A stretch of 60,350 nt of DNA. It comes from Acutalibacteraceae bacterium (GTDB taxonomy: Bacteria; Bacillota; Clostridia; Oscillospirales; Acutalibacteraceae). Position 1 is the stretch's first letter. Each line of letters starts with the position of its first letter. The stretch lies in NCBI GenBank assembly GCA_045659535.1, contig JAZOXC010000082.1:1-60350 (forward strand), in the 5' to 3' direction. Both the position numbers and the translations under genes were made by a program. Positions 8,351-55,570 of this stretch are shown piece by piece. The notes below the pieces were generated by a model. It saw only the letters and a list, made by a program, of their open reading frames with translations, had not been told where the DNA came from and searched no databases.

Positions 8351-8380
8351 TAAAAGTTTTTGCAACAGGAGGAAAAACTT

Positions 8381-10387: not shown

Positions 10388-10429
10388 TAATTTAAAAAAC
10401 GGCGCTCTTTAATCCAAGTGGTGATAACA

Positions 10430-31259: not shown

Positions 31260-32003
31260 ATGAAAATTCATGTAATCGGTACAAGCCATGGCGCTCCCGA
31301 AAAAAACCGCGCCTGCACAGCAACGCTGCTCGAAACCCAGGGTCAATTTTATGTTATTGATGCCGGCTCGAGTGTTGAAAAATACATGGCAGATAATGAT
31401 TTAAATCCCGAAGCAATAAACGGAATTTTCATAACCCATATGCATGATGATCATGTTGGAACCATAACCGGTCTCCTTAAAGTGCTTCGCACCTATCATG
31501 GAACTGCAAAAGCAAATATTTATCTTCCCGAGCAAAAGGGAATAGATGCCCTTATCGTTTGGCTAGATGCAATGCATTCGTCAAACTGGCCCCATAACCG
31601 CCTTCCCATTCTTCCTATTTCGGAGGGCGAGGTATTCAAAGATGAATTTGTAACAGTTAGTGCTGTTAAAACCGACCACATAAAAGGCTTCGATACCTTC
31701 GCGTTTGTGGTCGAGTGTGAGGGAAAGCGAATTGTATTCACAGGCGACCTCACCGATGACCTGCATGATTACCCGCAGGTTATATTAGATGAAGAATCCG
31801 CTGCGGTAGTAACCGAGCTTTGTCACTACCGAAAAGAATATGGCTTTGTCGGCGGATCGATTGATAAAATTAAAGCCTCTAAAACTAAGAAAATAATATT
31901 CACTCATATCTATCCCGGCGCGGATGATGATATGAGAGCGATTGAAGATACATTACCATTTGAAATACACATAGCGCAGGACAGCGATATTATTGAGATT
32001 TAG
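31260..32003 (+). CDS. MBL-fold metallo-hydrolase
   Basis: HxHxDH motif ITHMHDDHVG with downstream His/Asp ligand positions (KTDHIKG, FTGDL, FTHIYPG). No signal peptide. Confidence 0.8.
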   Translation: MKIHVIGTSHGAPEKNRACTATLLETQGQFYVIDAGSSVEKYMADNDLNPEAINGIFITHMHDDHVGTITGLLKVLRTYHGTAKANIYLPEQKGIDALIVWLDAMHSSNWPHNRLPILPISEGEVFKDEFVTVSAVKTDHIKGFDTFAFVVECEGKRIVFTGDLTDDLHDYPQVILDEESAAVVTELCHYRKEYGFVGGSIDKIKASKTKKIIFTHIYPGADDDMRAIEDTLPFEIHIAQDSDIIEI

Positions 32004-40024: not shown

Positions 40025-41050
40025 TTATCTTTTGCCGAAGATGTATTCGGTAATGCTATAAAAATCGGTCTCGGCAGGGAGAACTGTCGAGGGGAAGTTA
40101 TCATGGTTGGGGCTATCTGGATAGTGCTGGGTTTCGAGGCAGAAGCCTTGATGCTTATAAAGTCCGCCACCCTTTCCGAGAACATTCGAAAGGAAGTTCG
40201 AGGTATAAAGCTGAACTCCGGGCTCGCTTGTTTTAACCTTCATTTCGATTCCCGTTTTGGGGCTGTAGGCAATGATCTTAACCCCGTCGCCATCGTTTAG
40301 GCAGAAGTTATGATCAAAGCCGCCGCCAAAGCGCATCTGCTCATCATCGCTCTCAATATCGCGGCCGATAGCTTTTGCGGTTCTGAAATCAAAGGGAGTG
40401 CCCGAAACATCGCGAATTTCGCCCGTAGGAACGAGTTTATCATTATAGGGAGTGAAGTTATCGGCATCAATATAAAGCTCGTTATCAAGGATATTTCCGC
40501 CATCATAGCCGTTTAGGTTGAAATAGGTATGATTGGTTAGGTTTATAATGGTTTCCTTGCTTGCGATGGCCTTGTATTCTATGCGCAGCGCGTTATCCTT
40601 GGTGACTGTGAATATAACCGTAACATCCAGCTCGCCGGGATAGCCCTCCTCCATATCATCGAAGATATGATTAAAGGAAATCGAGGGTTCATCGCCCTCA
40701 TTTGCGCCAACAACATCCCAAAGCTGCTTATCAAATCCAACAAAGCCGCCATGCAGATGGGTGATGCCCTTTTCGTTGCAGCCAACCTCATATTCCTTGC
40801 CGCCGAGCTTAAATATTCCATCGCCGATGCGATTGCCGTAGCGACCGATGGTGGCGCCCAAATATCCGCCCGACTTTAGGTAGTCTTCTAAACAGTCGTA
40901 GCCGAGGGCAACATCGCGACCATCAAAAATTATATTGGTTATGGTTGCGCCATAGTTGATAATCGAAACCTCAAGACCGCCCGCACCTACGAGGGTATAT
41001 TTGGTTATCTCAACTCCATAAAGCTCGCCAAAATCTGTTTCCTTAATCAT
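40025..41050 (-). CDS. galM: Galactose mutarotase (aldose 1-epimerase)
   Basis: Motifs are GRYGNRIGDG, THLHGGFVGFDKQLW, NLTNHTYFNL and GFCLETQHYPDSPNH. Confidence 0.9.
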   Translation of the reverse strand: MIKETDFGELYGVEITKYTLVGAGGLEVSIINYGATITNIIFDGRDVALGYDCLEDYLKSGGYLGATIGRYGNRIGDGIFKLGGKEYEVGCNEKGITHLHGGFVGFDKQLWDVVGANEGDEPSISFNHIFDDMEEGYPGELDVTVIFTVTKDNALRIEYKAIASKETIINLTNHTYFNLNGYDGGNILDNELYIDADNFTPYNDKLVPTGEIRDVSGTPFDFRTAKAIGRDIESDDEQMRFGGGFDHNFCLNDGDGVKIIAYSPKTGIEMKVKTSEPGVQLYTSNFLSNVLGKGGGLYKHQGFCLETQHYPDSPNHDNFPSTVLPAETDFYSITEYIFGKR

Positions 41051-41079: not shown

Positions 41080-41108
41080 ATAATAATATATTTGCCTCAA
41101 TATGGCAA
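41080..41108 (-). promoter_or_regulatory. Candidate sigma-A promoter for galM
   Basis: On the minus strand: TTGCCA (41108-41103), 17 nt, TATTAT (41085-41080). The RBS AAGGAG lies downstream. Confidence 0.4.
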
Positions 41109-41145: not shown

Positions 41146-42105
41146 TTATCCCTTAATCGAAGTATAAACTACAACGCTGCCTGCGGGAATAGTATCGTTT
41201 ATCTTGGTTGTAACGCCGCTATAGGTCTTGTCGGCATCGATAATCGCGCCGCGCGAATCGCGCTCAACGCTTTCAACATCATAAACATGTCGATACATAT
41301 TCTTTCCGCCGATCGATTTTGCGAAGTTAACGCTAATATTCTGCTCGCTTTCGCTGCTGTTAACAACGAGAACCGACCAATTTCCATCAGCAAGCTTAAC
41401 AGTTGCGATATGAATATTGTCGTGTGTCGAGGATGAATAGTAGGTTGTTCCGTCATCCGATCCGGAGAAGTATTTGGTTAGTAGGCTGGTTGAATAGTAG
41501 ATATAATAGGGAGTCTGTGTTTGGATAAGCGAGGTGGTTGCGCCGCCCATATGGTTGCCATACTGGAACTCGCCGCCGCTACCCGAGATGTACGACCATA
41601 AGCAGTCGGCAAACTGCCATAGGATACCGCCCGAGAGACCTGCGTTCATAAGCGATACAAACTGGTTTGCGTTCTTAACGCCCCACCAGCGCTGACCTTC
41701 ATCATCATAGAGCTGCATGAAGTTGTAGCCGCTCGATGCAAACTCATCGCACCAGAAGGTAACATCCGAGAACTTGGGATTAACAGCCTCGAGATTCGAG
41801 AGCCAAGCTGCGAAGCGGTCATAAGCCTCCCAGTAAACATCGCCTTCTGCACCAACAACGGGAGCAGGGTCGTATTCACCGGTTCTGTCCTGGCTGCCTT
41901 CGATGAGGTGGGTGGTCCAAACATCATAGAGATCGTAGCCATATTTAGAATTCTTGGCGAAGTATTCTGCAAGACCTGCGTGCCCGCTCGGACCCGACTG
42001 GTTGGGGCCAACAAGGATAATAGAATCGCGAACGGTTTGGGTCTTGCTGCTGTCGGTATAGGTTGCATACATCTTGTCAACCAATCGATCAACAATCTTG
42101 AGCAT
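41146..42105 (-). CDS. C-terminal part of a clan GH-A hydrolase domain (nucleophile strand plus beta-sandwich); in-frame continuation of the giant ORF after a TAA, probably not a separate gene
   Basis: TFWCDEFASSG aligns with ISEFQEG and LTECSENG of the paralogs. HIATVKLADGNWSVLVVN aligns with their beta-sandwich. There is no RBS before ATG 42105. The frame is continuous with 42127-51792 apart from TAA at 42127-42129. Confidence 0.6.
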   Translation of the reverse strand: MLKIVDRLVDKMYATYTDSSKTQTVRDSIILVGPNQSGPSGHAGLAEYFAKNSKYGYDLYDVWTTHLIEGSQDRTGEYDPAPVVGAEGDVYWEAYDRFAAWLSNLEAVNPKFSDVTFWCDEFASSGYNFMQLYDDEGQRWWGVKNANQFVSLMNAGLSGGILWQFADCLWSYISGSGGEFQYGNHMGGATTSLIQTQTPYYIYYSTSLLTKYFSGSDDGTTYYSSSTHDNIHIATVKLADGNWSVLVVNSSESEQNISVNFAKSIGGKNMYRHVYDVESVERDSRGAIIDADKTYSGVTTKINDTIPAGSVVVYTSIKG

Positions 42106-42126
42106 CTGAGCAGCATGAGCACCCTG

Positions 42127-45100
42127 TTAGAGAGAGCCGTTCTGTTGCGAGGGCTCGTAAAAGGATAGGACATGGGTTAGGTTGGTAACACCATGATTAC
42201 GGATAGCCAAAACAGCCTCGGTCATCCAGGTAGCATATCTGTCTGCTGCGAGGTCAAGATCAATAGCGGGATGGAATATACCCCAAGAGATAGCATATTG
42301 AATATTGCCGTTTGCATCAACAATTCGCGGAGAGAGGTAATCAACCTCGGGAATCGAGGAAGAACCATAAACCGCCGAGGAGAGATGCCATCCGCAAAGG
42401 ATCATAACATCAATGCCGTAATCCTCGAGCAACTGACACCATTTATAGAACTGCTGCATCTCAGAAGAGTTCCAATCCCAAGGATTGTTAACATCGCCTG
42501 TATATGCCCATTGCGATCTAAACATGGTTCTAACGCGGGTAATACCTGCGTTCTTCATGCGGGTAAGCTCTTCATGGAGCTGTTCTTCGGTAAAGTCTCT
42601 TCCCATAACATCATCAATAAGCGGGAAATAAACTGTTGAGGTAAGACCCGAGAAGGTATCGTTAACAATGCCCGAGGTGGTATTGTTAACGGTTAGGGTA
42701 GCTGCGCCTGCACCAGCGGTTCCGCCGCCCTCCACAGCGTTCGACATATCATCGTAGTCATAAGCCTCATCAGCGGTTTCGTTGGGTCTGTTTTCGAACG
42801 CATGGATATCCGAGAAGAAGGAAACATAGTCAATATCGATATATCCTGCAGTACATTCGATAACAAGATAGGTCGGGCGAACATCGGGGCTTAGATACTT
42901 GAATGCGCCAAAGCTCCAATTGGTTCCCGATGCCTTAATCGAGGCGATAGAACCATCAGCATTGAGAACAGGAGTTTTGCCATCGGCTGTTGCCGAGATG
43001 CCAATATATCCTGCGCCGCTTGCCGAAGAACGGATAGCAGCCGAAAGGGTATAGTTGTAGTAATCTTTATAGTTATAGTCGATTCGGGTGTTGATGGGAA
43101 CGATAAGCTTCTGACCGGCCGAAACGCGGAGATACTTGCCGCCATCATATGCATCCGAGGAGCTCATAAAGGTTCCGCCGCTATAAAGCGAGTTGCCGTT
43201 TTCAAAGCTACCATCGCTAACAAGGTTATAAAGCGATTCGGTATAGGGAGCAGTAACAGGGTCGCTGCTTGCTATAGCATTTGTGCGCTTGATCTGGATA
43301 TCATCGAAATGGAGGTTCGATGTTGTGCTGTCGTTTGCCGAGAAAACAAGGTTAACGTTGCAAGCATCAGCTGCGGCGCGATCATTTGCGAAGGTATGAG
43401 TAACCAATGTCCATTCGGTATTCGAAAGGGTAACAGTCTGCTTGTCGAGTGCGTGCATGTAATCCCAGTCGCCCGAGTCAACGGTTCGAATTGAGCTATC
43501 AAAAGATGTTCCTGCCTTATCGGCCTTAACATAATAGGAAATGGTATACCACTCACCCGGATTAACCCTAAATGTGGACCAAGCCTGATATAGCGGGTGG
43601 CGCAGTAGATCGCCATCATTGGTTGTAACATCGCTCTTGGGATCGGTATCGCTCGAGGTAGCATTCATGCGGAGCGAATATTTGCCCGAATGTGCGGTCG
43701 AGGAGGAGATAGCATACCAAAGCTTGTTAGTCTTGGCAATGGTGTAGGCAGGAGCAAATCCGCCCTCAACCTTAATCATGCTGTTCTCAAAATCAACCGA
43801 CTCATAGGTTATAAGCTCTTCGGTTTCATCGAGCGAAACGGATAGGATGCTAACCTTGCTGTCGCAAACCGACTGCAGGAAAACATCAACCGCCGAATTA
43901 TCACTCGAGTTGAAGCTAACCTTATAGGTCGAAACACCGGTCTTATCGGTGGTCATCGAGGAGTTTGCGCTATAAGAGGTGGTCGGGTTGAGTGTTGTGG
44001 CACCCGCATCGGTAACACCAAAGTAAAGAGCACCGGCTTCGCTTGTCTTTGCCTTAACGGTTAGGGTGTAGTCGGTGTAGCGCTTAACGGTAGCACTCTG
44101 CTTGAGGTACTGACCTCTCTCGGTTAAGGTTGCGCTGGGCTCGCCATCGATATCATAGGTCGAAGCGCTGCCTTCCCAACCATTTCTGCCGTTTTCAAAG
44201 TTTCCGTTCTCGATGCCATAGGTGGGAGCATCAATCTGGGTTAAGGAGAGGTCATCAATCCAAACAGTACCCGAGTTCAGGCGGCTTCCATAGCCAAGAC
44301 CGAATACTGCCTCGGTGTCATCGCCCGAGTTAAAGCGAAGGGTAACCTTCTGCCAATCCCAGTTTGCATACATGGGTCCTAATTGATAATCAAGAGCATA
44401 GGATTGAAGCGAAAGAAGCTTCGGAGCCAGGTATTCCGCTTCACCATATTTATACTGGCGATACTTAACTCCATCAATCTCGATGTCCTGATAATAGGAG
44501 TATCCTGCATTCATAAACTTGTGCGGATAGATATAGGCTCTTCCAAGGAATACAGGAGTTTGTGCATACCAATAGAACGAGAATTCATAATCGGTATTGG
44601 GAATAAGATCGCGCAGAATATAGGATGCGGTTCCTGCGCGGGTTGAAAGTCTGAGCGAGCGGTTACCTGTATGGGCATATGAACTATCGATCGAGAAATA
44701 CGAATCGAAGGTTGCATTGGCGCCTATAATGTAGTCGCTACCCGAGTAGTAGATAAATCCGTTATGGTCGTATGCATAGCAAATACCATTGCTTTCATTA
44801 TAGGTTGTGTAAGAGTAGGGATTATCGGTAACAACTCGGTTTTCAAAGTTTCCAACATAGAACTCATCATTTTCAAAGCTACCATCATTTATGAGGTTAA
44901 CCTTTTCGGGAACACTGTTGTTAACTCCCGACTGAAGATGAGCATTACGCTTAATAAAGTTCCAAACCTTATCAACCGAAACACTTGCAGAGGATTTAAC
45001 ATTGGTGGTCTCGTTAACATCGCTGTCGCTCCAGAAGTCGGCAGGATAGTTGCCTGCGAAGGCATCGATGAGAGCTACCGCCAATAATCTCTTAACCTGG

Positions 45101-48100
45101 TTAACCGAACGGTTATAGGTTCCGCCCACGATAGCCTTGGAGGCATCCTCGTTTCCGGAATAGAAGGTCCAGTTAAACTTGCCGTATTTATCGGTAATCT
45201 TGCAATAAGATCTTGCCGAAATCTTGGCAGAGGGGTTGATTGTATCGGTATTGGTAAAGGTTGCATAGAAGGAATTACCAACAAGATTGATTCCTGCGCT
45301 GTTAGAAAGTGCAGCATAGCTAACACCGGGAACATCCCAAGTGAGCTCACCTGTGAAGAGCTGAGTCGGCATAGCTATGGTTCCGATTTCGGTAAGAACC
45401 GAGGAGGTCGGAATAAATCCAACATCGGATTTATACGAGATAGTGCCTTCCTTATACTTGCCGGCCTCGGTAACGAGGGTTGCACCAAGAATAGAGGGAG
45501 CAATATCATCAACCTTCATAACCGAAACGTTATCAATGTAATAAATTCCGTCGGCCTTTGCGCCCATAAGGAGATACATTGTTTCGCCATCTGCCAATTC
45601 TTCGGCAGTGTTAACGATTATGTTGGCTTCGATAAATCCATCGCCAAACTTTCTAGTGATGGTGTTGGGATACTTGTTGTCATAAAGCGAGGTATCGGTT
45701 TCGCTGGCTGCCTCTGTGGAGAGATAGGTTGTGCTGTTTGCGAAAGCACCCCAGCTGTTCTTCGGGCTTAAGGTTATATCAATTCGCGAGTTGGTGGTAG
45801 AGGTAACCTTAAACGAGAAGTGAACAAGATATTGGGTGCCCGGCTCGGCCTTAATGGGCAAACCGAAGTTTAGATATCCGGTTGCATTATCGGTAACCTT
45901 TAGGTAGCGGTTTCCGAATTCGCTATCTGAGATATCGGTATGAACAGCGTTTTCGAGTGTAACACCCTTGTTTGCGAACCATTCGCCGGTTGTTCCTTGC
46001 TCAAATCCGCCATCAGAAATGCTGTTAAATACCTTGAATTTAGCAATAAGGTGTATGTATTCGGTGGTGGTGAAGGTGGGATAGTAGGAAACAATGTTGC
46101 CTGCCGCATCATACCAACCATCGAATCCGTTTCCGTATTCGGGTGTTGCGGTGAAGGTGATTTCGGTTCCGATAACAGCCTCATCCTTATCGGCAGCTGC
46201 AAATCCGCCAACATCGGCCTCTGCAATAACCTCGGATGCCGCTGCGAGGATAAAGTTATCCAGCTGCATCTCAAGACCATTGTTGAGGTTTTGAATCATG
46301 AGGTAAACGGTTCCCTTATCGCCGTTTGTGAATACGTTGGGATCGCTGCCCGAATTGAAGGAAATAGTAAACCTTACCCAATCGCTGCCGAATTTATCGG
46401 TGTATTCGGTATAGGCAAGGTTGCCACCGGGACGGTGTGCGGTTCCTGCCTCGGTGGAATAGGTTTTGGTGTAGCCGGTGGTCGGATTCTTGTAAAACTG
46501 GGTGGTAGCGCCCATGATAGCGCTGCTCTCCCAATTTAAGAGGTTATACATAAATCCGATACGAAGTCCGCCGTTTGCACCAAAGTCGGTAATCTTAAGG
46601 TCGAAGGAAAGACTGTAGTCGGTATCCTTCTCAACATTAAGAGCAAAACCGGTTTGAACAGTTTCCTGCGAGGGAGCGCTGAACTTTAGGTATCCGTTTC
46701 CGTGTCCCGAAAGGGCAGCATCAAACTGACTAATGGTAAGGCGGTTTGTGTTAGAGAATATGATCGAAGGCATCTCATCGCCCTCAATATCACCGTTTCT
46801 AATGGTGTTGGGACCCGAGAATACTGCCTTTAGGTAGTTGTAGGTAGCGGTTGCATGGGTTAGGTTCTTGGAAACAAGATTTCCATCGATATCATACCAA
46901 CCAACAAAGGTGTTTCCATAGTAGGGAACAGCGGTATAGGTGGTAATCAAGGTTCCGCCAACAACTGCCTTATCATAGCTAACATCGCCGCCGCTTGTTG
47001 AATCAACGGTCTTGTCAAGAGCTAAGGTGAATTCGTTTACACCCTTGCAGAAATACTTATCCTGAACGGTGGAATAGGATGTGAAATCAACCATATTTCC
47101 GTTGTCATAGAATCCCATGAGAACAATATTACCAACGCCTTTGTAGTTGATATCATCGTTTTGGTTATCCATAAGGATTTCGTAGATGGTATTTCCGTTG
47201 TCGCCCTTGGTTGTGTTAACCTTGGTCTGCGAGTTGGATTCATGTCCGCAGAGGAGCATGATAATGTTGGGGTAAACCTTAAGAAGCTGATCATAGAGCT
47301 CCTGCGGGTTGCTCGAATCTTCGGGGTTGGTGAAGATATAGGGGCTCTCCGCATCGGTTGCGCGGGTGCCATCAGCAGCCAAGTGTGCATGGGTGGTAAC
47401 GATAACCTTATAGTCGGGATTCTGCTCGCAAAGCTCGCCTGCCCACTTTATAACATCATAGCGGGGATAAAGCTCGAGCGAGATAATCATAAGCTTAACG
47501 CCGTTAACATTAATCTTATGATATGTGTTATCCATCGAGTCATCATAAGCGCCGCCCCACTGGGGAAGAGTGTTAAACTGCGACTGCTTAAACATGCTGT
47601 TAAAGAGTCCGGTTTTGCGTTCGGCGGTTGCATTGTATGCGCCGGTGCTGGCACCATTTATGTAGTCGTGGTTACCAAGCGAGATGGCAAACGGAATCTT
47701 TCCTATAACCGAGCTAAAGGAATTCGAAACATTATACCATTGGTTGTAGCTTCCGTTTTCGGTGAGGTCTCCCATCGAAAGAACGGCTGCAATGTTATAG
47801 GCATCCTTGTTGCCCGAAATCCAATCTGCTATATCAACATAGTAATCGGGGTAGTTGATGAGGAGCTTTTGCTCATCGGGAAGAACTACAAAGGTGAAAT
47901 CATAGTTATCGGGATCGAAATCGCTTTCGGTCGAGAGATTGGGGCTTGTGAAATCCTTGTAGTTTGCGGTAAGTGTGATATCGCCTGTTAGGTTGATGGT
48001 ATCGTTCTTAACATAGGTGTTAGCTCCCATCGACCAGTTAACGAAATCTTTTGCGGGAGGTAGCGAGCTCGGCGCCTTGATCACATAGCTGCCCTTGTGT

Positions 48101-51100
48101 GCAAGCTCGGTGATTATTCCGATGCGCTCATCTCCGCTGTCATAAGAAACGGTAACATAATCATCGCTTTTGCCGGGCATTAAGCAGAAATCATCGCAAA
48201 CAATGGTGCTGCTTCCTGCATAGTAGGTTATAGCAACATAAATTTCGGTATAATCACCGGAATTGAAGTAAACCTTGGTCTGCTGGAAGTCGGCGTTGTA
48301 TTGAGCGTCGAGTATTGTAGAGCTGAATTTCTTGCCATCCTTATCATAGAAGCTTACACTCTTTAGATGGGAGGGAGCAGAGCCTGCGCCTGCCGAAAGC
48401 GAATTGCGAATAAACCAATAGAACGAGAGCTCATAATCGGTGTTCTTCTCAAGACCATCAATCTTGCGGAGAACCTCGTTGTTGCGGTGAGTGAGCTCGA
48501 GCGAGGCCTCGCCGGAGTAGGGCTTGCTGGTTAATACCTTTGCATCCCACCAAAGCGAGGGGTTGTATGAGTGCCATTCGGCATAGCCGTTAGGATCGAT
48601 TTCAAAAATCTTATCCGAAAGGATAGATGTGTTGCGAATGGTGTTTTCATAACCCGAATCGGGCCAGAGATTGTTTATATTGAACTTAGCAACGATATCA
48701 CAGCTGCGTGCAATATAGAAGGTGTACTGTGCGTTAGAGGAAACCTTTTGACCATCGATATACCAGCCATCAAAGGTGTTTCCTGCATAGGGAACAGCGG
48801 TAAAGGTAACGGTTGTTCCGATAACACCCTCTGCAGTCTTGTTGCCGGTTATATAACCGCCGTAGATACCGTTTTGCTTTTCAATCTTGGCATTAACCTG
48901 GAACTGGGTTCCTTCGGGATCGAAGTATGCAAAGTTTCCGGTGAGGTTGGCAGCCTCGAAGGTAACATAGGGGTTGGTTGCCGAAAGCGGGTTGCCGTTT
49001 GAATCAACCCAACCTAAGAACATGTAGGATTCATCCTTCGGAACAGCGGTAATGGTGGCGGGGATAACCTTGGTTGATGCGAGTCGGTCGGCCATAACAT
49101 TACCACCATCGGTAGTGGCGATAGAGATAACATTCTTAACCTCGGAAACCGAGATATCATCGATATCAAGCGCCATTGTTCCGCCGCCGTTTGCACCAAA
49201 GATGAGTGCGAGGTCGATATTCTCGGAAATATCGGTTCCGTTTGCAAGAACGGCACTCGAGGTATCGAGAACTATCGAATAGTAGGTCCATTCATCGCTC
49301 TCTTTGGTGAAAACTCCGGGGAACGAGGTGGATGAACCGGAGGGATTAAGGTCGCTGCCGCCCGAGGGAAGCAGATCAACATCACTAATATAGCTTTGCT
49401 TCGAACCGCTGGTCATAGCGATCTGCTCGGCAAATAGCGGGTCGCTCCAAGCATAGGAACGGTTGCCCTGGTTATAAAGAAGTATTCTGCGGAAGGCCAT
49501 ATCTTGAGTGGAAAGGTAGTTTCCGTTCTCATCTATGCCCGAGCGCAGCTTATAAGAGATAACATATTTCTTGTTTTTCTCAAGCTTGAAATTCCATTGG
49601 AAGGAATAAAGAGCATTTCCGGTTGTAACCGATTCCATGCGCAGGAAGCGGTTACCATCCTTATCGGTCTTTATCGAAGCGGAGGAGCTTGAATTCTGAA
49701 CATAGTAGTTAACATAGTCGGTTGCAAAGTCGCCGTTGTAAATAAGGTTGTGCTTTTCAAACTTTGCATGCATTCCAACCTGAGTGGCAACGGTCTCTTC
49801 GGTGGAGATGAGCTGCTCATCCATATCATACCAACCGAGGAACTTGTTGCCGTAGTATGCCTTTGCGGTGTAGGTGTCGTTATCACTCGCAACAACATAT
49901 CCGCCATCCTCGGCATAGGGAGCGCTTGCGAATTTAGCGGTATAAACACCCTCGGCATAGAAGGTTTCGGTCGGGTTGGTCGAAACTAATTTGTTGCTGG
50001 CATCATACCAACCTGCAAACGAGAAGCCCTCGCTCGGGGTTGCGGTATAGCGGTTGATCGGGATCTGTGCATATGCGGTGGTTCCGTCAACGGCGGTAGC
50101 GGCCTGACCCTTCTTGGCGCCACCAAAATCAACATAGCAAACCGGATCGGGGATATAGGTCATAGCGGTAGAAACACTACCGTTTTTGCCTGCCAAAGCG
50201 GTGATAACCGAGCTTTGGGTTGTGCCCGCCTCGGTAAGGCTTATGTTGTCGAGGTAGAAGGTGTTGATTGTCGTGTTGCTGACACCCAAAAGGAAGAACA
50301 TATGGGCGGTATCTTTGCCATCGGCAAAAATCGAGGTTTCCTCTGCGGTATCAAATGTTACCCAAAGGTCAACCCATCCGTTCTTTCCGGCATTAACCGT
50401 TGCGTGGGTTTGTTCGCGCATCATGCCATAGCTTCCGCCATAGCCGCCGAATACCGACCAAGAGCCAAGGTTGGTTGTGCCTTCCTTTTCCCAATGGTAG
50501 GTTAGGTTCTTAACAAAGGTGCTTCTGGTCCAACCATTTTTAAAGGAAGTTTCGGAATGAAGACCAACATAAGCGGTAGCATCAATATCTACCGAGTAAT
50601 AAGAAAGGTGGAAAACATAGCGGGTATTTTTCTTAACATCAAAAGGAATGGTAACTATATCCGCGTTGGTGTTTGCTGCGGTGGTTGTATCAACCTTTAA
50701 AACATAATTTCCGTGGATGGTTGCGCTTGTGGTCGGGTTTTCTATAACAACCGCATGACCCGAGTTGGCCGAATGGGGCTCGGCATTGAGGTAATCCTGG
50801 CCTGCGGTGGTTCCCGATTCAAAGTTACCATCGGTAATCTGGTTATATACATTAAACTTGGCAGTAAGCGAGGAGGAAAGCTTGCCGCTAATAGTAGCTT
50901 CGGTTGTTACAAGGCGGTCGCCATCATACCAACCTGCAAAGGTATTGCCATAGAAGGGAACAGCGGTGCTCTGATAGGCTTCGCCCGCAAAACCGCTCTG
51001 TGTTCCGCTTATATAACCGCCATCGCCTGCAGTAAAGGCAACAACCTCATACATGGTAACATCATCAACAAGACCGCTGAAACTTCCCGACCAATCATAG

Positions 51101-51792
51101 TTGTGGAAAACAAGGCGGGCATGATATTTTCCATCTTCGCCGGCGGTAAGGTTGTTAGCCGCAATAAAGTCATCAGCCTTAAAGGTAAAGGTCTGCTTGC
51201 TGAAATCACCAACACCATAATATGTGGTGTCGGCAATTGCGGTATATTTATGGAACTTTACCGAAAGCCAGTCAACTCCCGAGGGAACGGTTGCATCTGC
51301 GATGCCTGTGTTAGCATCGAGATAGATGGCAAACTTCCATGAGGTTTGGGCTGTCTTGTCGGCAGTATGGGGTCGAACAGTAGTCAAAGCCGAAACAGTA
51401 TAGGTTTTACCTGCCTCGATTCGAACATCCTGATACATCTTCTGTCCCTGGTTAATGGTTGCAGCTATGTGGTTATAGTTTGCAAGATAACCTGCAGGGG
51501 ACAGGGTAGAGGGGTAAACCACTCTAATATTTTTAGAAGTGCCGTTAGTTCTCCAACCAACGGGAGCAAGATCAACCATCTCACCATCATACGAGGCGTT
51601 TGCCTGGTCATCGGTGGTGTATTCAATCTTGTCTTTAACACCGTCGTTATCGGTATCGATACCCTCAAAATCACCGTTTTTAACGAGATTTATCGGACCG
51701 GCATTTTCTGCAGAAACGGGGAGCAGGGTTAAAACTGTCAGTGTTCCTATCAGAATAGCAACCGAAAGAATAATGCTTAAAATTCTTTTCAT
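42127..51792 (-). CDS. Giant (3,221 aa to the TAA) secreted multimodular protein: about 10 CBM4/9-like modules, about 8 Listeria/Bacteroides-type repeats, a metallophosphoesterase-like domain and the N-terminal half of a GH-A domain
   Basis: RBS GGAGGTAGG and signal peptide ILSIILSVAILIGTLTVLTLLPVSA. NG[DS]FE-type module starts include NLVKNGDFEG, ITDGNFESG, ISDGGFEQG, INDGSFEND, IENGNFENG and VSDGSFENG. xxFxGWYD repeats include NTFAGWYDGD, NTFDGWYIDG, NTFVGWYDID and NGFDGWYDAA. Phosphoesterase motifs are GDLTENG, GNHDY, TTHAH and CGHES. GH-A start is RVRTMFRSQW...LSFYEPSQ. Confidence 0.85.
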   Translation of the reverse strand: MKRILSIILSVAILIGTLTVLTLLPVSAENAGPINLVKNGDFEGIDTDNDGVKDKIEYTTDDQANASYDGEMVDLAPVGWRTNGTSKNIRVVYPSTLSPAGYLANYNHIAATINQGQKMYQDVRIEAGKTYTVSALTTVRPHTADKTAQTSWKFAIYLDANTGIADATVPSGVDWLSVKFHKYTAIADTTYYGVGDFSKQTFTFKADDFIAANNLTAGEDGKYHARLVFHNYDWSGSFSGLVDDVTMYEVVAFTAGDGGYISGTQSGFAGEAYQSTAVPFYGNTFAGWYDGDRLVTTEATISGKLSSSLTAKFNVYNQITDGNFESGTTAGQDYLNAEPHSANSGHAVVIENPTTSATIHGNYVLKVDTTTAANTNADIVTIPFDVKKNTRYVFHLSYYSVDIDATAYVGLHSETSFKNGWTRSTFVKNLTYHWEKEGTTNLGSWSVFGGYGGSYGMMREQTHATVNAGKNGWVDLWVTFDTAEETSIFADGKDTAHMFFLLGVSNTTINTFYLDNISLTEAGTTQSSVITALAGKNGSVSTAMTYIPDPVCYVDFGGAKKGQAATAVDGTTAYAQIPINRYTATPSEGFSFAGWYDASNKLVSTNPTETFYAEGVYTAKFASAPYAEDGGYVVASDNDTYTAKAYYGNKFLGWYDMDEQLISTEETVATQVGMHAKFEKHNLIYNGDFATDYVNYYVQNSSSSASIKTDKDGNRFLRMESVTTGNALYSFQWNFKLEKNKKYVISYKLRSGIDENGNYLSTQDMAFRRILLYNQGNRSYAWSDPLFAEQIAMTSGSKQSYISDVDLLPSGGSDLNPSGSSTSFPGVFTKESDEWTYYSIVLDTSSAVLANGTDISENIDLALIFGANGGGTMALDIDDISVSEVKNVISIATTDGGNVMADRLASTKVIPATITAVPKDESYMFLGWVDSNGNPLSATNPYVTFEAANLTGNFAYFDPEGTQFQVNAKIEKQNGIYGGYITGNKTAEGVIGTTVTFTAVPYAGNTFDGWYIDGQKVSSNAQYTFYIARSCDIVAKFNINNLWPDSGYENTIRNTSILSDKIFEIDPNGYAEWHSYNPSLWWDAKVLTSKPYSGEASLELTHRNNEVLRKIDGLEKNTDYELSFYWFIRNSLSAGAGSAPSHLKSVSFYDKDGKKFSSTILDAQYNADFQQTKVYFNSGDYTEIYVAITYYAGSSTIVCDDFCLMPGKSDDYVTVSYDSGDERIGIITELAHKGSYVIKAPSSLPPAKDFVNWSMGANTYVKNDTINLTGDITLTANYKDFTSPNLSTESDFDPDNYDFTFVVLPDEQKLLINYPDYYVDIADWISGNKDAYNIAAVLSMGDLTENGSYNQWYNVSNSFSSVIGKIPFAISLGNHDYINGASTGAYNATAERKTGLFNSMFKQSQFNTLPQWGGAYDDSMDNTYHKINVNGVKLMIISLELYPRYDVIKWAGELCEQNPDYKVIVTTHAHLAADGTRATDAESPYIFTNPEDSSNPQELYDQLLKVYPNIIMLLCGHESNSQTKVNTTKGDNGNTIYEILMDNQNDDINYKGVGNIVLMGFYDNGNMVDFTSYSTVQDKYFCKGVNEFTLALDKTVDSTSGGDVSYDKAVVGGTLITTYTAVPYYGNTFVGWYDIDGNLVSKNLTHATATYNYLKAVFSGPNTIRNGDIEGDEMPSIIFSNTNRLTISQFDAALSGHGNGYLKFSAPSQETVQTGFALNVEKDTDYSLSFDLKITDFGANGGLRIGFMYNLLNWESSAIMGATTQFYKNPTTGYTKTYSTEAGTAHRPGGNLAYTEYTDKFGSDWVRFTISFNSGSDPNVFTNGDKGTVYLMIQNLNNGLEMQLDNFILAAASEVIAEADVGGFAAADKDEAVIGTEITFTATPEYGNGFDGWYDAAGNIVSYYPTFTTTEYIHLIAKFKVFNSISDGGFEQGTTGEWFANKGVTLENAVHTDISDSEFGNRYLKVTDNATGYLNFGLPIKAEPGTQYLVHFSFKVTSTTNSRIDITLSPKNSWGAFANSTTYLSTEAASETDTSLYDNKYPNTITRKFGDGFIEANIIVNTAEELADGETMYLLMGAKADGIYYIDNVSVMKVDDIAPSILGATLVTEAGKYKEGTISYKSDVGFIPTSSVLTEIGTIAMPTQLFTGELTWDVPGVSYAALSNSAGINLVGNSFYATFTNTDTINPSAKISARSYCKITDKYGKFNWTFYSGNEDASKAIVGGTYNRSVNQVKRLLAVALIDAFAGNYPADFWSDSDVNETTNVKSSASVSVDKVWNFIKRNAHLQSGVNNSVPEKVNLINDGSFENDEFYVGNFENRVVTDNPYSYTTYNESNGICYAYDHNGFIYYSGSDYIIGANATFDSYFSIDSSYAHTGNRSLRLSTRAGTASYILRDLIPNTDYEFSFYWYAQTPVFLGRAYIYPHKFMNAGYSYYQDIEIDGVKYRQYKYGEAEYLAPKLLSLQSYALDYQLGPMYANWDWQKVTLRFNSGDDTEAVFGLGYGSRLNSGTVWIDDLSLTQIDAPTYGIENGNFENGRNGWEGSASTYDIDGEPSATLTERGQYLKQSATVKRYTDYTLTVKAKTSEAGALYFGVTDAGATTLNPTTSYSANSSMTTDKTGVSTYKVSFNSSDNSAVDVFLQSVCDSKVSILSVSLDETEELITYESVDFENSMIKVEGGFAPAYTIAKTNKLWYAISSSTAHSGKYSLRMNATSSDTDPKSDVTTNDGDLLRHPLYQAWSTFRVNPGEWYTISYYVKADKAGTSFDSSIRTVDSGDWDYMHALDKQTVTLSNTEWTLVTHTFANDRAAADACNVNLVFSANDSTTSNLHFDDIQIKRTNAIASSDPVTAPYTESLYNLVSDGSFENGNSLYSGGTFMSSSDAYDGGKYLRVSAGQKLIVPINTRIDYNYKDYYNYTLSAAIRSSASGAGYIGISATADGKTPVLNADGSIASIKASGTNWSFGAFKYLSPDVRPTYLVIECTAGYIDIDYVSFFSDIHAFENRPNETADEAYDYDDMSNAVEGGGTAGAGAATLTVNNTTSGIVNDTFSGLTSTVYFPLIDDVMGRDFTEEQLHEELTRMKNAGITRVRTMFRSQWAYTGDVNNPWDWNSSEMQQFYKWCQLLEDYGIDVMILCGWHLSSAVYGSSSIPEVDYLSPRIVDANGNIQYAISWGIFHPAIDLDLAADRYATWMTEAVLAIRNHGVTNLTHVLSFYEPSQQNGSL

Positions 51793-51810: not shown

Positions 51811-51957
51811 TTAAATATCGTCTCCGCCCTCATCAGGCTGGGTTTCGTAGTCGCCGAATTCGCCTTCAACATCAAAACTCGAATCGCCAAAGCAAACATC
51901 TCCGGCAGCGAGCATTCGAAGCAGCTCAAATTCGGGCGCATCATAACGCAGTTTCAT
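51811..51957 (-). CDS. Small hyper-acidic protein (48 aa), unannotated family; paralog of 17737-17880
   Basis: AGGAGG (complement of 51965-51970), ATG at 51957-51955, TAA at 51813-51811. Sequence is MKLRYDAPEFELLRMLAAGDVCFGDSSFDVEGEFGDYETQPDEGGDDI. It ends 18 nt before the giant gene's ATG. Confidence 0.65.
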   Translation of the reverse strand: MKLRYDAPEFELLRMLAAGDVCFGDSSFDVEGEFGDYETQPDEGGDDI

Positions 51958-52043: not shown

Positions 52044-52332
52044 GCAAATATTGCTAATTTTTATTGATTTTGCGAATGTTTGTTTTCCTTAAATAAAAAA
52101 GTAGGAAAAGCTTGCAGCAATCAAAAATTTTCCTTTTTTAGAAGTGCTTTTTAGAGGATTTTTTTGGATAAAAAGGCGCCCAAAAGCATAAAATAGCTTA
52201 TAAATAATGCGAAGTGCACAAAAAAGTTTGGAGCATGCCGAGAGGTAAAGCAAAGCAAAAAAAGCTATGCTAAAATTATTATGTCGAAGCGACCGAAATA
52301 ATGTTTTTCGCTATATGAAAGGGATTGAACTT

Positions 52333-53682
52333 ATGGGCAGATTGTTTGGAACCGATGGTGTTAGAGGGGTGGCTAACAGCGAGCTCACCTGTGAGCAGGC
52401 CATGCAGATAGGAAGAGCATCGGCAACCGTTTTGGCCGATGGCTGCCGCCGAAGACCGATTTTTGTGGTTGGCGCGGATACGCGTACCTCGTCGGATATG
52501 CTTGCTTGCGCGCTCATAGCGGGCATATGCTCGGTTGGCGCCGATGTAATAAATCTTGGCGTTGTACCAACCCCTGCCGTTGCTTTTTTGGTGGGCAAAT
52601 ATAAAGCCGATGCGGGTGTTATGATTTCGGCATCGCATAATTCGGCGGAATATAACGGAATAAAGATTTTTAGCGGCGATGGCTTCAAACTTCCCGATAT
52701 GCTCGAGGAAAGGGTCGAGGATCTTGTGCTCGGCAAATGCGCTATGCCACAGCTGCCGATAGGCAAGGATGTCGGTAAGGTTTCGGTTGCGAAAAATGCA
52801 ATAAAGGATTACTGCGACCATGTAAAAAGCAGCGTGCTTTATTCACTCGATGGGCTTCGGGTGGCGATTGATTGCGCCAATGGCGCCGCGAGCACAACCG
52901 CCGCAGAGATTTTCGATTCGCTCGGAGCAGATGTGCATATATTAAATGCCGCTCCCGATGGACAAAATATAAACCGAGCTTGCGGATCAACCCATTTGGA
53001 ATCGCTATCCAAATATGTTGTTGATAACGGGATCGATGCAGGTGTGGCCTTTGATGGCGATGCCGATCGCTGCCTTTGCGTTGATGAAAACGGCAACCCC
53101 ATAGATGACGATGAAATAATGGCAATTTGCGCCCTCGATCTCAAAGAGCGGGGTCGCCTCGCCAAGAACACCGTGGTAGGAACCATAATGACCAACCTCG
53201 GGCTTATTCGCTTTTGCGAGCAAAACGATATCCGCTTTGTGGCAACCAAGGTTGGCGACCGCTTTGTGCTCGAGGAGATGCTGCTCGAGGATACCGTTTT
53301 TGGCGGGGAGCAGTCGGGGCATATCATCTTTCGCGATTTTGCAACAACCGGCGATGGACAACTCACGGCAGCACAGCTTTTATCGCTGATGCGCCGCAAA
53401 GGCGAGAAACTATCATCCTTGGCAGCGATTATGAAAAAATGCCCGCAAACCACAATAAACCTAAAGGTTTCGCCCGAGGGAAAGCGCCGTTATTATACCG
53501 ATGAGGTTATAAAAACCGCAATCGAAAAAGCAAAAGCGGAGCTCGGCAACATGGGAAGAATTGTTGTTCGCCCATCGGGCACCGAACCGTTTATTCGCGT
53601 TATGGTCGAGGGCGATGATGAGAAGATTATTGAAAAAACCGCAAAAGAGGTTGCCTCGGTTATAAATGGGCAGCTTTCTTAA
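52333..53682 (+). CDS. glmM: Phosphoglucosamine mutase
   Basis: Starts MGRLFGTDGVRGVAN, the canonical N-terminus; the ORF-track start at 52267 is upstream and unsupported. Active-site loop is SASHNSAEYNGIK, with DGDADR and GEQSGH. Confidence 0.9.
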   Translation: MGRLFGTDGVRGVANSELTCEQAMQIGRASATVLADGCRRRPIFVVGADTRTSSDMLACALIAGICSVGADVINLGVVPTPAVAFLVGKYKADAGVMISASHNSAEYNGIKIFSGDGFKLPDMLEERVEDLVLGKCAMPQLPIGKDVGKVSVAKNAIKDYCDHVKSSVLYSLDGLRVAIDCANGAASTTAAEIFDSLGADVHILNAAPDGQNINRACGSTHLESLSKYVVDNGIDAGVAFDGDADRCLCVDENGNPIDDDEIMAICALDLKERGRLAKNTVVGTIMTNLGLIRFCEQNDIRFVATKVGDRFVLEEMLLEDTVFGGEQSGHIIFRDFATTGDGQLTAAQLLSLMRRKGEKLSSLAAIMKKCPQTTINLKVSPEGKRRYYTDEVIKTAIEKAKAELGNMGRIVVRPSGTEPFIRVMVEGDDEKIIEKTAKEVASVINGQLS

Positions 53683-53715: not shown

Positions 53716-55542
53716 ATGTGCGGAATAGTTGGATACACCGGAAAAAAGCAGGCAGTACCCGTATTGCTTTCGGGTCTTTCGGCCCTCGAATATAGGGGCT
53801 ATGATTCTGCCGGAATTTCGGTATATGAGGATGGAATCATAACAATTAAAACCGAGGGCAGAATTAAAAATCTCGAAAACCGTATTAAATCGGGTAGAAA
53901 ATTGAGAGGAACATCGGGTATCGGTCATACTCGATGGGCAACCCATGGAGAACCGAGCGAGCGCAACGCGCATCCCCATGTTTCATCAAGACTCAGCCTT
54001 GTTCATAACGGTATAATCGAAAACTATTTAGAACTGCAGAAAATGCTGATTTCGGAGGGTTATAGATTCAAAAGCGAAACCGATACCGAGGTTGCCGCAT
54101 ATCTCATAGACTATTTTTATAAGCAGCATAACGACCCCGTAAAAGCGCTCCATTCGGCGGCCAAAATCCTGCGCGGCTCCTATGCTTTTTGCGTTATGTT
54201 TAAAAGCAAAAAGGATACACTTTATGCTATTCGCCGCGGCAGCCCGCTTGTCTGTGCCTTGGTGCCAAACGGCGGCTATATAGCATCCGATATTCCCGCA
54301 ATACTGCCATTCACCAAAGAATATTATCAGCTCGATGAGGGTGTTGTTGCCGAGATATCACCGCAAAAGCTTCGCTTTATTACAGCCGAAGGAACCATTG
54401 TTTCGGCAGAAAAGCGCGAGATAGATTGGAATGTCGAGTCGGCCAAAAAATGCGGTTATAATCATTTTATGCTCAAGGAAATAAACGAGCAGGCCGAAGC
54501 GGTAAAAAATACGATAATGCCCCGCCTTCGCGATGGCATACCCTATTTTGATTGCGATATTCTCGATAGAAGCATCGAGGAGATAAGCGAGATAAAAATT
54601 ATCGGTTGCGGAACGGCAATGCATGCAGGGCTTGTGGGTAAAAATCTGATCGAGCGGTTCTCAAGAACCCCCGTTTCGGTAGAGATTGCCTCGGAATTCA
54701 GATATGCCGACCCGATTTTATCCAAAACCACCCTCGTTATCCTAATATCCCAGTCGGGTGAAACCGCCGATACAATAGCCGCCCTCGAGCTCGCGAAATC
54801 GGCGGGCGCAAAAACTCTTGCCATAGTCAATGTGGTTGGCTCAACCATAGCTCGGTTGGCTGATTATGTTATATATACCTGGGCGGGTCCCGAAATTTCG
54901 GTCGCCTCTACCAAGGCCTATACCGTACAGTGTGCTGTGCTTTATCAAATAGCCTTTAAGCTTGCGCTCGTAAAAAAGCAGATATCCGAGGGTCGCTGCC
55001 GAGAGCTGTGTGATATGCTCCTAAACTCTCTGCCCGATGCGATAGATGTCACCCTTAGGATGAGCGGCAGAATCAAGCGCCTTTCGGAAAAGATTGCGGA
55101 ATACGAGGATATATTCTTCATAGGTCGAGGTATGGATTCGGTTGTGTGCGAGGAGGGCTCGCTCAAGCTAAAGGAGATATCCTATATCCATAGCGAAGCC
55201 TATCCTGCGGGCGAGCTAAAACACGGCACCATCTCGCTTATTGATGCGAATGTGCCGATTATTGCGCTCGTTACCGTAAGCTCCGTTATGGAAAAGATGG
55301 TCAGCAATATAAGAGAGACCAAGTCCCGCGGGGCAAGGGTTTTCTCGGTTTGCATATCGGCGGCCGCCGATGCTGTAGAGGCTGTGTCGGATTATACTCT
55401 GATACTGCCCGAAATAAACGAAATTTTCGCCCCCATAATCGCTACTGTAGTGTTGCAGATATTGGCATATTATACGGCGGTTGCAAGGGGCTGCGATGTT
55501 GATAAACCCCGCAATCTCGCAAAATCTGTAACGGTAGAATAA
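53716..55542 (+). CDS. glmS: Glutamine--fructose-6-phosphate aminotransferase (isomerizing)
   Basis: N-terminus MCGIVGY, with HTRWATHG, two SIS domains (ISQSGETADT) and C-terminus KPRNLAKSVTVE. Confidence 0.95.
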   Translation: MCGIVGYTGKKQAVPVLLSGLSALEYRGYDSAGISVYEDGIITIKTEGRIKNLENRIKSGRKLRGTSGIGHTRWATHGEPSERNAHPHVSSRLSLVHNGIIENYLELQKMLISEGYRFKSETDTEVAAYLIDYFYKQHNDPVKALHSAAKILRGSYAFCVMFKSKKDTLYAIRRGSPLVCALVPNGGYIASDIPAILPFTKEYYQLDEGVVAEISPQKLRFITAEGTIVSAEKREIDWNVESAKKCGYNHFMLKEINEQAEAVKNTIMPRLRDGIPYFDCDILDRSIEEISEIKIIGCGTAMHAGLVGKNLIERFSRTPVSVEIASEFRYADPILSKTTLVILISQSGETADTIAALELAKSAGAKTLAIVNVVGSTIARLADYVIYTWAGPEISVASTKAYTVQCAVLYQIAFKLALVKKQISEGRCRELCDMLLNSLPDAIDVTLRMSGRIKRLSEKIAEYEDIFFIGRGMDSVVCEEGSLKLKEISYIHSEAYPAGELKHGTISLIDANVPIIALVTVSSVMEKMVSNIRETKSRGARVFSVCISAAADAVEAVSDYTLILPEINEIFAPIIATVVLQILAYYTAVARGCDVDKPRNLAKSVTVE

Positions 55543-55570
55543 AAAAGAGCCGCATTTCGCGGCTCTTTTT
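55541..55570. terminator. Bidirectional rho-independent terminator between glmS and the convergent RluA-family gene
   Basis: AAAAA-AGAGCCGC-ATTTC-GCGGCTCT-TTTT. It overlaps the stop codon of the minus-strand gene. Confidence 0.8.

What the first reader, a model, noticed from the sequence alone, without database searches (positions are those of the whole stretch)
42100..42135. A single in-frame TAA splits the GH-A catalytic domain of the giant gene
Reading the minus strand gives ...CTA TCC TTT TAC GAG CCC TCG CAA CAG AAC GGC TCT CTC TAA CAG GGT GCT CAT GCT GCT CAG ATG CTC AAG..., that is ...LSFYEPSQQNGSL*QGAHAAQMLKIVDRLVDKMY. The 319-aa ORF at 41146-42105 is therefore in the same frame as the 3,221-aa ORF, separated only by TAA (42127-42129) and seven sense codons.

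Alignment by eye to the two paralogs (HITFGNEPNGSWDWETLGYQPAYYASVVESVDKAF and HISFANEPGFSWDFQCFGNRKDYYCKVVRAVHDRF) puts the stop inside the TIM barrel. It falls between the acid/base strand (xEP) and the nucleophile strand (CDEF, downstream fragment). No RBS precedes ATG 42105.

Four options remain: a recent nonsense mutation that removes catalysis but keeps the binding array; an assembly or sequencing error; strain-level on/off variation; or low-level readthrough. Other genes in the window end in TAA, TAG and TGA, so a recoded stop is unlikely.
Basis: seen in the sequence. Interest (0 to 1): 0.62.

Follow-up and report, generated by a model that had tools for sequence, protein, structure and literature searches.

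The report
Premature stop truncates giant glycosidase gene
A single stop codon cuts off the second half of the enzyme domain at the end of a roughly 3,550-residue secreted sugar-binding protein of an uncultured gut Clostridia bacterium; all relatives read tyrosine there, so this is most likely an ordinary recent gene-breaking mutation, or less likely an assembly error.

Summary
TAA at 42127-42129 (minus strand) lies in frame between the 3,221-codon ORF and a 326-codon open tail. Seven sense codons separate it from ATG 42105.

Ten homologues run through this position without a break. Two of them sit in the same gene neighbourhood and are 3,554 and 3,566 aa long. All ten have Tyr at this position. 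The closest relative, a gut-metagenome contig, reads TAT.

The split domain is a (beta/alpha)8 barrel plus beta-sandwich whose best structural matches are GH30 xylanases. The stop falls in the beta4-alpha4 loop, nine residues after the invariant acid/base Glu and 128 residues before the invariant nucleophile Glu.

The tail is still intact and conserved, so the break is young. TAA is the main terminator in the window (22 of 32 genes). I found no RBS, no RNA structure and no conserved stop, so recoding is very unlikely.

Best reading: a recent lineage-specific nonsense mutation (TAY>TAA) that removes catalysis and keeps the binding array (about 0.63). It comes with an unprecedented N>Y change next to the catalytic Glu. 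A sequencing or assembly error (about 0.25) cannot be excluded, because no run holding the source reads was found. This is ordinary biology and of low interest.

The parts
42127..42129 (-). Premature TAA stop; Tyr (TAC/TAT) in all relatives; residue 191 of the C-terminal domain, in the beta4-alpha4 loop
42130..51792 (-). Truncated ORF of 3,221 codons. It holds a signal peptide, CBM-like and InlB B-repeat (Flg_new_2) modules, a metallophosphoesterase domain and the first half (beta1-beta4) of the GH30-like barrel
41146..42126 (-). Orphaned 3' part of the gene: 326 open codons plus the natural TAA. It encodes alpha4-beta8 of the barrel, including the nucleophile, and the C-terminal beta-sandwich. 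It is still intact and conserved
41149..42699 (-). GH30-like clan GH-A domain (517 residues when read through) that the stop splits
42154..42156 (-). GAG, predicted acid/base Glu (E182 of the domain); invariant in 155 of 156 family members
42157..42159 (-). TAC (Tyr) where all ten homologues and the metagenome relative have Asn (AAY); wider family has T/N/V/S, never Y
41743..41745 (-). GAG, predicted nucleophile Glu (E319, WCDEF, end of beta7); invariant; now downstream of the stop
42103..42105 (-). ATG that opens the 319-aa ORF. It is an internal Met conserved in all homologues, with no Shine-Dalgarno sequence in front

Best explanation
The giant gene at 41146-51792 (minus strand) was a single gene of about 3,548 codons for a secreted, multi-module glycan-binding protein that ends in a GH30-like retaining glycosidase domain. 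In this lineage a single-base change turned a Tyr codon (TAT or TAC) into TAA, in the loop after barrel strand beta4.

Translation now stops after residue 3,221. The exported product keeps the signal peptide, the CBM-like/InlB-repeat array, the phosphoesterase module and a half barrel that carries only the acid/base Glu. The nucleophile Glu, barrel strands beta5-beta8 and the beta-sandwich are no longer attached, so glycosidase activity is lost.

The tail (41146-42126) is a young gene remnant. It has no signal peptide and no RBS, so even if a little of it is made by re-initiation at ATG 42105 it would stay in the cytoplasm and could not complement the exported half.

Shown here: the stop, the Tyr in relatives, the intact syntenic orthologues, the fold, the catalytic-residue positions and the conservation of the tail. 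Inferred: that the change is biological and not technical, loss of activity, and the fate of the two fragments. Whether the allele is fixed or polymorphic in the population is unknown.
For: - **Sense codon in all relatives.** Ten homologues (52-78% identity over the last 569 residues; six are full length at 3,552-3,629 aa) cover the site with no break. All ten have Tyr at the stop column.
- **Synteny.** L001/L002 and L004 have the same neighbourhood (PGM, 48-aa ORF, giant gene, aldose epimerase; L004 also has glmS and a pseudouridine synthase). Their genes are intact at 3,566 and 3,554 aa. The L001 codon is TAC.
- **Nearest relative.** A 201-nt gut-metagenome contig (run X1, 88% nt identity) shares window-specific residues and reads TAT and AAC, that is Y and N-E-P.
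- **The break is young.** The tail shows 77-85% aa identity to the orthologue, as high as or higher than the rest of the protein. It has only one conservative private change at 96 otherwise invariant columns. Eleven of 12 differences from close relatives are at third codon positions. A relative-rate test shows no significant acceleration (26 vs 15, p = 0.12; upstream 325 vs 314).
- **The sequence is not generally noisy.** The window has the fewest private changes at invariant columns of seven full-length proteins (27, against 31-87). The flanking genes match orthologue lengths closely: galM 341 vs 340-341, glmS 608 vs 608, pseudouridine synthase 218 vs 218, PGM 471 vs 470 and 448.
- **Domain identity.** The AF2 model has pTM 0.77, with beta4 at 174-178 and beta7 at 314-320. 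Foldseek top hits are all GH30 (4fmv, E 1.4e-18, TM 0.76). E182 and E319 are invariant in 155 of 156 and 155 of 155 aligned family members.
- **The truncation is unique.** Among the best 150 of 974 family representatives, only the window's own protein ends at profile position 189.
Against: - No sequencing run that holds the source reads was found. The best share of words was 0.10, and two further searches found nothing. The base call itself is therefore unverified.
- Only one low-depth contig (depth 2.4) from a related strain covers the site.
- The window's private changes are somewhat bunched around the stop: T>S, N>Y, H>Q and Y>stop within 13 codons. The scan statistic gives P = 0.036 for four within 24 residues and 0.16 for three within 13. 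This could also point to a local technical artefact.
- The tail shows no decay at all. That is equally what an error would give.
Confidence: 0.63

Rival explanations
1. Sequencing, assembly or consensus error. The organism actually has TAY (Tyr) and an intact 3,548-aa gene, and the contig carries a wrong base (or a short patch of wrong bases) at 42127-42165.
For: - The tail is perfectly intact and conserved.
- Four private non-synonymous differences lie within 39 nt, with weakly significant clustering.
- The genome appears to be an uncultured-organism assembly, judging by its relatives.
- The source reads could not be inspected.
Against: - Elsewhere the contig looks clean. It has the fewest private changes at invariant columns among seven orthologues, and the neighbouring genes are full length.
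- The changes are substitutions without indels.
- The sequence context of the two T>A changes (ATCAG>AACAG) is not systematically converted. ATCAG occurs 105 times in the window.
- The in-window paralogues are only about 20% identical, so cross-mapping of reads cannot explain it.
- From general knowledge: a random consensus error that produces a stop in one particular gene is a priori much rarer than a real pseudogene.
Confidence: 0.25
2. Selected or polymorphic loss of catalysis. Strains of this species alternate between an enzyme-bearing and a binding-only version of the giant protein. The stop and the N>Y change next to the catalytic Glu reflect selection to switch the glycosidase off.
For: - The nearest relative carries the intact allele, TAT and N-E-P.
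- The domain has two independent hits close together, Y-E-P and the stop.
- The binding array upstream is fully conserved.
Against: - Only one broken allele is known, and there are no population data.
- A substitution is not a reversible switch, and there is no repeat or invertible element at the site.
- The clustering is statistically weak.
- The position before the catalytic Glu tolerates T, N, V and S in the wider family, so the effect of Y is unproven.
Confidence: 0.08
3. The gene is still expressed as a functional whole or as two cooperating pieces. This would happen through stop-codon readthrough or suppression at TAA, or through termination and re-initiation at ATG 42105.
For: - The frame is preserved.
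- An ATG lies 21 nt after the stop.
- The tail is intact.
Against: - None of the 11 relatives has a stop here.
- TAA is the commonest terminator in the window (22 of 32), including housekeeping genes such as glmS, PGM and galM.
- There is no tRNA gene in the window.
- The RNA around the stop folds no better than shuffled sequence (z = +0.46).
- There is no Shine-Dalgarno sequence before the ATG.
- The tail has no signal peptide, so it could not meet the exported half (inference).
- No family member among the best 150 is naturally split here.
Confidence: 0.04

Closest known systems
Glycoside hydrolase family 30 (clan GH-A), e.g. Clostridium papyrosolvens GH30 endoxylanase 4fmv and Bacillus subtilis XynC 3kl3/3gtn
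   Same: - It is a (beta/alpha)8 barrel with a tightly associated beta-sandwich.
- A Glu follows beta4 in an x-E-P motif, and a Glu sits at the end of beta7.
- Foldseek gives E 1e-18 to 1e-15 and TM about 0.75 on the target.
- The profile hits GH30 xylanase B 6iuj at E 9e-6, aligning vtHvltfnEPsh with VTHLGFLNEPQE.
   Different: - Sequence identity is only 11-15%.
- No Pfam GH30 model reaches its cut-off; Glyco_hydro_30C scores 17 bits against a cut-off of 22.
- There is no NCBIfam hit.
- The family of 974 cluster representatives is unannotated.
- Substrate and activity are unknown, and here the domain is cut in two.
Bacterial pseudogenes made by a single nonsense mutation (early-stage gene inactivation)
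   Same: - There is an in-frame stop where all orthologues have a sense codon.
- The change is a single base.
- The downstream part is still open and conserved.
- The syntenic orthologues are intact.
   Different: - Only the last 9% of the protein is lost, so the large binding part may still be made and be useful.
- This is a domain truncation and not a full knock-out.
- The allele is not verified in reads.
Giant multi-CBM / InlB-B-repeat surface proteins of gut Clostridia (P0001-P0010 family)
   Same: The architecture and synteny are the same: a 48-aa acidic ORF upstream, PGM/glmS on one side and galM on the other.
   Different: The window copy is the only one that ends at residue 3,221 without the second half of the terminal enzyme domain.

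Membership tests
Clan GH-A glycoside hydrolases | (beta/alpha)8 barrel fold | tested here: met
   The AF2 model of the read-through domain has pTM 0.77 and eight beta/alpha units. Of 1,641 Foldseek matches, the 50 best listed are all GH30, GH44, GH39 and related barrels.
Clan GH-A glycoside hydrolases | Acid/base Glu at the C-terminal end of strand beta4 (N-E-P type motif) | tested here: met
   E182 directly follows beta4 (174-178). It is invariant in all 12 aligned sequences and in 155 of 156 wider family members. The preceding residue is N or T in the family, but Y in the window.
Clan GH-A glycoside hydrolases | Nucleophile Glu at the end of strand beta7 | tested here: met
   E319 (WCDEF) ends beta7 (314-320) and is invariant in 155 of 155. 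In the window it lies downstream of the stop.
Clan GH-A glycoside hydrolases | Retaining glycosidase activity | not testable with these tools
   No biochemical data exist for any member of this sub-family.
CAZy family GH30 | Sequence membership (matches to GH30 family models) | tested here: not met
   No Pfam GH30 barrel model hit. Glyco_hydro_30C scores 17.2 bits, below its cut-off of 22. Ten other family members have no Pfam hit at all. The PDB profile hit to GH30 is only E 9e-6.
CAZy family GH30 | Barrel with an obligate side beta-sandwich | tested here: met
   The model has a beta-sandwich at 417-513. The top 30 Foldseek hits are all GH30.
Nonsense-mutation pseudogene / truncated allele | In-frame stop at a position where orthologues have a sense codon, with homology continuing on both sides | tested here: met
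   Tyr in all 10 homologues, and TAT in the metagenome relative.
Nonsense-mutation pseudogene / truncated allele | The stop is present in the organism's DNA (not an artefact) | not testable with these tools
Programmed stop-codon readthrough or reassigned TAA | Stop conserved at the site in relatives | tested here: not met
   None of the 11 relatives has a stop there.
Programmed stop-codon readthrough or reassigned TAA | TAA is not used as a normal terminator, or a stimulatory RNA element or suppressor tRNA is present | tested here: not met
   TAA ends 22 of 32 genes. The fold z-score is +0.46. There is no tRNA in the window. The rest of the genome could not be searched.

The most novel reading that the evidence does not exclude
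The break is not junk but a selected, strain-variable switch. This species keeps both an enzyme-tipped and an enzyme-less allele of its giant glycan-binding surface protein. The enzyme-less allele, made by N>Y beside the catalytic Glu plus the stop, acts purely as an adhesin or glycan trap. Separately, the domain itself belongs to a large clan GH-A family (about 1,000 sequence clusters at 50% identity) that has no Pfam or NCBIfam model and no known substrate.
Probability: 0.08. Interest if true: 0.4.

Novelty: new member of a known kind. Interest (0 to 1): 0.15.

Why it matters
**Annotation.** The 3,221-aa and 319-aa ORFs should be treated as one disrupted gene. The 319-aa ORF is not an independent protein. 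The organism probably lacks the glycosidase activity that its relatives carry on this giant protein, while still displaying the binding array.

**Quality control.** This is a concrete, cheap test site (one amplicon or one pile-up) for assembly accuracy in this genome.

**Biology.** The general lesson is modest: single-hit truncations of very long genes are expected. The more useful by-product is that the C-terminal domain defines a sizeable GH30-like family with invariant catalytic glutamates and no curated model. That family may be worth biochemical characterisation in an intact orthologue.

Tried and rejected
- **Source reads.** Three run searches found only low-depth gut metagenomes with related strains. 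Only one contig (X1) crosses the site.
- **Own genome and relatives.** No genome-wide suppressor-tRNA search and no species-level comparison were possible.
- **Metagenome scans.**
  - A degenerate DNA pattern across the site found nothing. The same pattern matches the JGI contigs L001 and L002 locally, so that collection simply lacks them.
  - A protein-based scan also found nothing.
  - The genome-contig scan gave only one 56% relative (L003).
- **Fragment search.** A 200-aa piece around the stop was used to find partial proteins from close strains. It found only the window's own 319-aa ORF.
- **Systematic sequencing error at an ATCAG motif.** Rejected, because the motif is abundant in the window.
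- **Templated (quasi-repeat or palindrome) mutagenesis.** No repeat covers the changed bases.
- **Recoding RNA structure.** None found.
- **Strong clustering of private changes.** It is only weakly significant (P = 0.036 and 0.16), so I do not build on it.
- **N>Y as proof of a dead active site.** I toned this down, because the wider family has T more often than N at that position.
- **Direct sequence hit to the PDB.** None with a single sequence; only a profile search gave hits.
Full report
**1. Observation**

ORF listing gives 42127..51792 (3,221 aa) and 41146..42105 (319 aa) on the minus strand. Translating 41146-51792 in one frame gives 3,548 residues with a single internal stop...THVLSFYEPSQQNGSL*QGAHAAQMLKIVDRL.... 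The stop is TAA at 42127-42129. Seven sense codons later comes ATG 42103-42105, and the natural stop is TAA at 41146-41148.

**2. One gene or two?**

A search with the last 569 residues of the read-through protein returned ten homologues at 52-78% identity. Each covers 100% of the query as one uninterrupted protein. Six of them are 3,552-3,629 aa long. The window's own 3,221-aa product covers only 43%. In the alignment all ten have Tyr at the stop column.

Two of these homologues are syntenic orthologues.
- L001 and L002 (two JGI metagenomes, identical genes) carry PGM, a 59-aa ORF, a 48-aa ORF, a 3,566-aa giant gene and aldose epimerase.
- L004 (GCA_045652465.1) carries a pseudouridine synthase, glmS, PGM, a 48-aa ORF, a 3,554-aa giant gene and aldose epimerase.
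- The window has the same order: 55569-56225, 53716-55542, 52267-53682, the giant gene, then 40025-41050.

The L001 codon at the site is TAC.

**3. Nearest relative**

No public run holds the window's own sequence; the best share of sampled words was 0.10. Several gut metagenomes hold related strains at low depth. One 201-nt contig (run X1, depth 2.4, 88% identity) crosses the site. On the + strand it differs at 42127 (T>A) and 42159 (A>T). On the coding strand that means TAT (Tyr) in place of TAA and AAC (Asn) in place of TAC (Tyr).

Its translation is WMTEAVLAIRGHGVQNLTHVLTFNEPSHQNGALYQGAHAAQMLKIVDRLVDELYATYTDSSK. It shares window-specific residues (EAVL, KIVDRL, YATYTDSSK) that P0001 lacks. 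It is therefore the closest known relative, and it is intact at this position. Runs X2, X4 and X6 do not reach the stop.

**4. What the stop interrupts**

The last 517 residues have no Pfam or NCBIfam model above cut-off. Other evidence identifies the fold.
- A 12-sequence profile hits GH30 xylanase B 6iuj (E 9e-6) and the GH30 enzyme 5ngk (E 3.5e-5). The 6iuj alignment pairs vtHvltfnEPsh with VTHLGFLNEPQE.
- An AlphaFold2 model (pLDDT 72, pTM 0.77) is a (beta/alpha)8 barrel followed by a beta-sandwich. Strand beta4 is at 174-178 and beta7 at 314-320.
- Foldseek's best matches are all GH30 enzymes: 4fmv at E 1.4e-18 with target TM 0.76, and XynC 3kl3/3gtn, at 11-15% identity.

E182 (Y-E-P in the window, N-E-P in the orthologues) and E319 (WCDEF) are invariant across the orthologues and the two in-window paralogues. 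They are also invariant in 155 of 156 and 155 of 155 domain instances from the wider family. The N-E-P motif is a recognised feature of clan GH-A (PMC3190823).

The stop is residue 191 of the domain. It lies in the low-confidence loop between beta4 and helix alpha4, nine residues after the acid/base and 128 residues before the nucleophile.

**5. Age of the lesion**

Several measures indicate that the break is young.
- The tail is 77-85% identical in protein to P0001, as high as or higher than the rest of the protein.
- Among 96 tail columns that are invariant in the other sequences, the window has one private and conservative change, L>I.
- Differences from the close metagenome strains in 41500-41870 fall at third codon positions in 11 of 12 cases.
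- A relative-rate test (window vs P0001, with P0003 as outgroup) gives 325 vs 314 upstream and 26 vs 15 in the tail (p = 0.12).

The tail was therefore under purifying selection until very recently. This fits a young mutation, and equally an artefact.

**6. Other private changes**

Over the whole protein the window has 27 private changes at columns invariant in six full-length homologues. That is the lowest count of the seven sequences, whose range is 27-87. The sequence is therefore neither noisy nor generally decaying.

Four of the 27 lie at residues 3210 (T>S), 3212 (N>Y), 3222 (Y>stop) and 3233 (L>I). H>Q at 3216 sits in a nearly invariant column. A permutation scan gives P = 0.036 for four within 24 residues and 0.16 for three within 13. 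This is suggestive and no more.

The N>Y change sits next to the catalytic Glu. In the wider family this position is T (92), N (50), V (10) or S (2), and never Y. Tyr is therefore unprecedented, but the position is not strictly Asn, and I do not claim that this change alone kills the enzyme.

If the ancestor had the X1 codons, the four changes T>S, N>Y, H>Q and Y>stop are all A:T>T:A transversions. I note this without an explanation.
- A motif-specific base-calling error is not supported, because ATCAG occurs 105 times in the window.
- No repeat could have templated the changes.

**7. Recoding, readthrough and re-initiation**

- TAA terminates 22 of 32 genes in the window, including glmS, PGM and galM; TAG terminates 7 and TGA 3.
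- The window holds no tRNA gene.
- The RNA around the stop is no more structured than shuffled sequence (z = +0.46).
- The 25 nt before ATG 42105 (CTAACAGGGTGCTCATGCTGCTCAG) hold no Shine-Dalgarno sequence at a usable distance. The giant gene itself and many of the other listed genes have a GGAGG-like site.
- That Met is an internal residue conserved in all homologues.
- Among the best 150 of 974 family representatives, only the window's own protein stops at profile position 189.
- The 319-aa ORF exists as a called protein only on this contig.

A tail made by occasional re-initiation would lack a signal peptide. It could not meet the exported N-terminal part (inference).

**8. Verdict**

The most likely reading (about 0.63) is a recent, lineage-specific nonsense mutation, TAY>TAA. 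It removes the nucleophile half of a GH30-like domain from a giant secreted glycan-binding protein and leaves a 3,221-aa product with the binding array.

A technical error is the main rival (about 0.25). It can be settled only with the source reads. Selected or polymorphic loss (about 0.08) and functional readthrough or a two-piece arrangement (about 0.04) have little or no support.

This is an ordinary event of a known kind, and interest is low.

Noticed in passing
window 41149-42699 (-); also 8360-10387 (+) and 10418-12979 (+): The C-terminal domain and the two in-window paralogues belong to a family of 974 representatives of 50%-identity clusters at E<=1e-3, 287 of them at E<=1e-30. The family has a GH30-like fold, two invariant glutamates and a T/N-E-P motif. 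Neither Pfam nor NCBIfam recognises it, so it appears to be an unclassified clan GH-A family.
   Followed up: partly
window 51811-51957 (-), L001 3040-3186, L004 3836-3982: A 48-aa acidic ORF (MKLRYDAPEFELLRMLAAGD...) directly upstream of the giant gene is also present in front of the intact orthologues.
   Followed up: partly
window 42127-42199: This 73-nt block differs at 16 positions from the X1 allele; the unaligned contig ends in X2 and X4 carry part of the same allele. The flanks differ by only 2-6%. Both lineages carry derived, largely non-synonymous changes here, for example ACC>CAG in the relative. The cause of this local excess divergence is unexplained.
   Followed up: partly
window 47150-47900 (-): A calcineurin-like metallophosphoesterase domain (Pfam PF00149, E 1.3e-7, residues 1314-1518) is embedded in the middle of the giant binding protein. 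It is conserved in the orthologues.
   Followed up: no
window 1-31200: The first half of the window is a glycan-utilisation locus. It holds GH43, DUF5696, four ABC permease genes, a solute-binding protein, the two GH30-like paralogues, and giant discoidin/GDSL-lipase proteins of 1,532 and 2,359 aa.
   Followed up: no
window 41080-41108 (-): A promoter-like site (TTGCCA-17-TATTAT, 10 of 12) lies between the giant gene and galM, and no strong terminator follows the giant gene. Any polar effect of the premature stop on galM is therefore uncertain.
   Followed up: no
window 31260-32003 (+): This metallo-beta-lactamase-fold protein has a sub-threshold match to the anti-Pycsar Apyc1 family (28.8 bits against a cut-off of 50). 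It is probably just shared fold.
   Followed up: no
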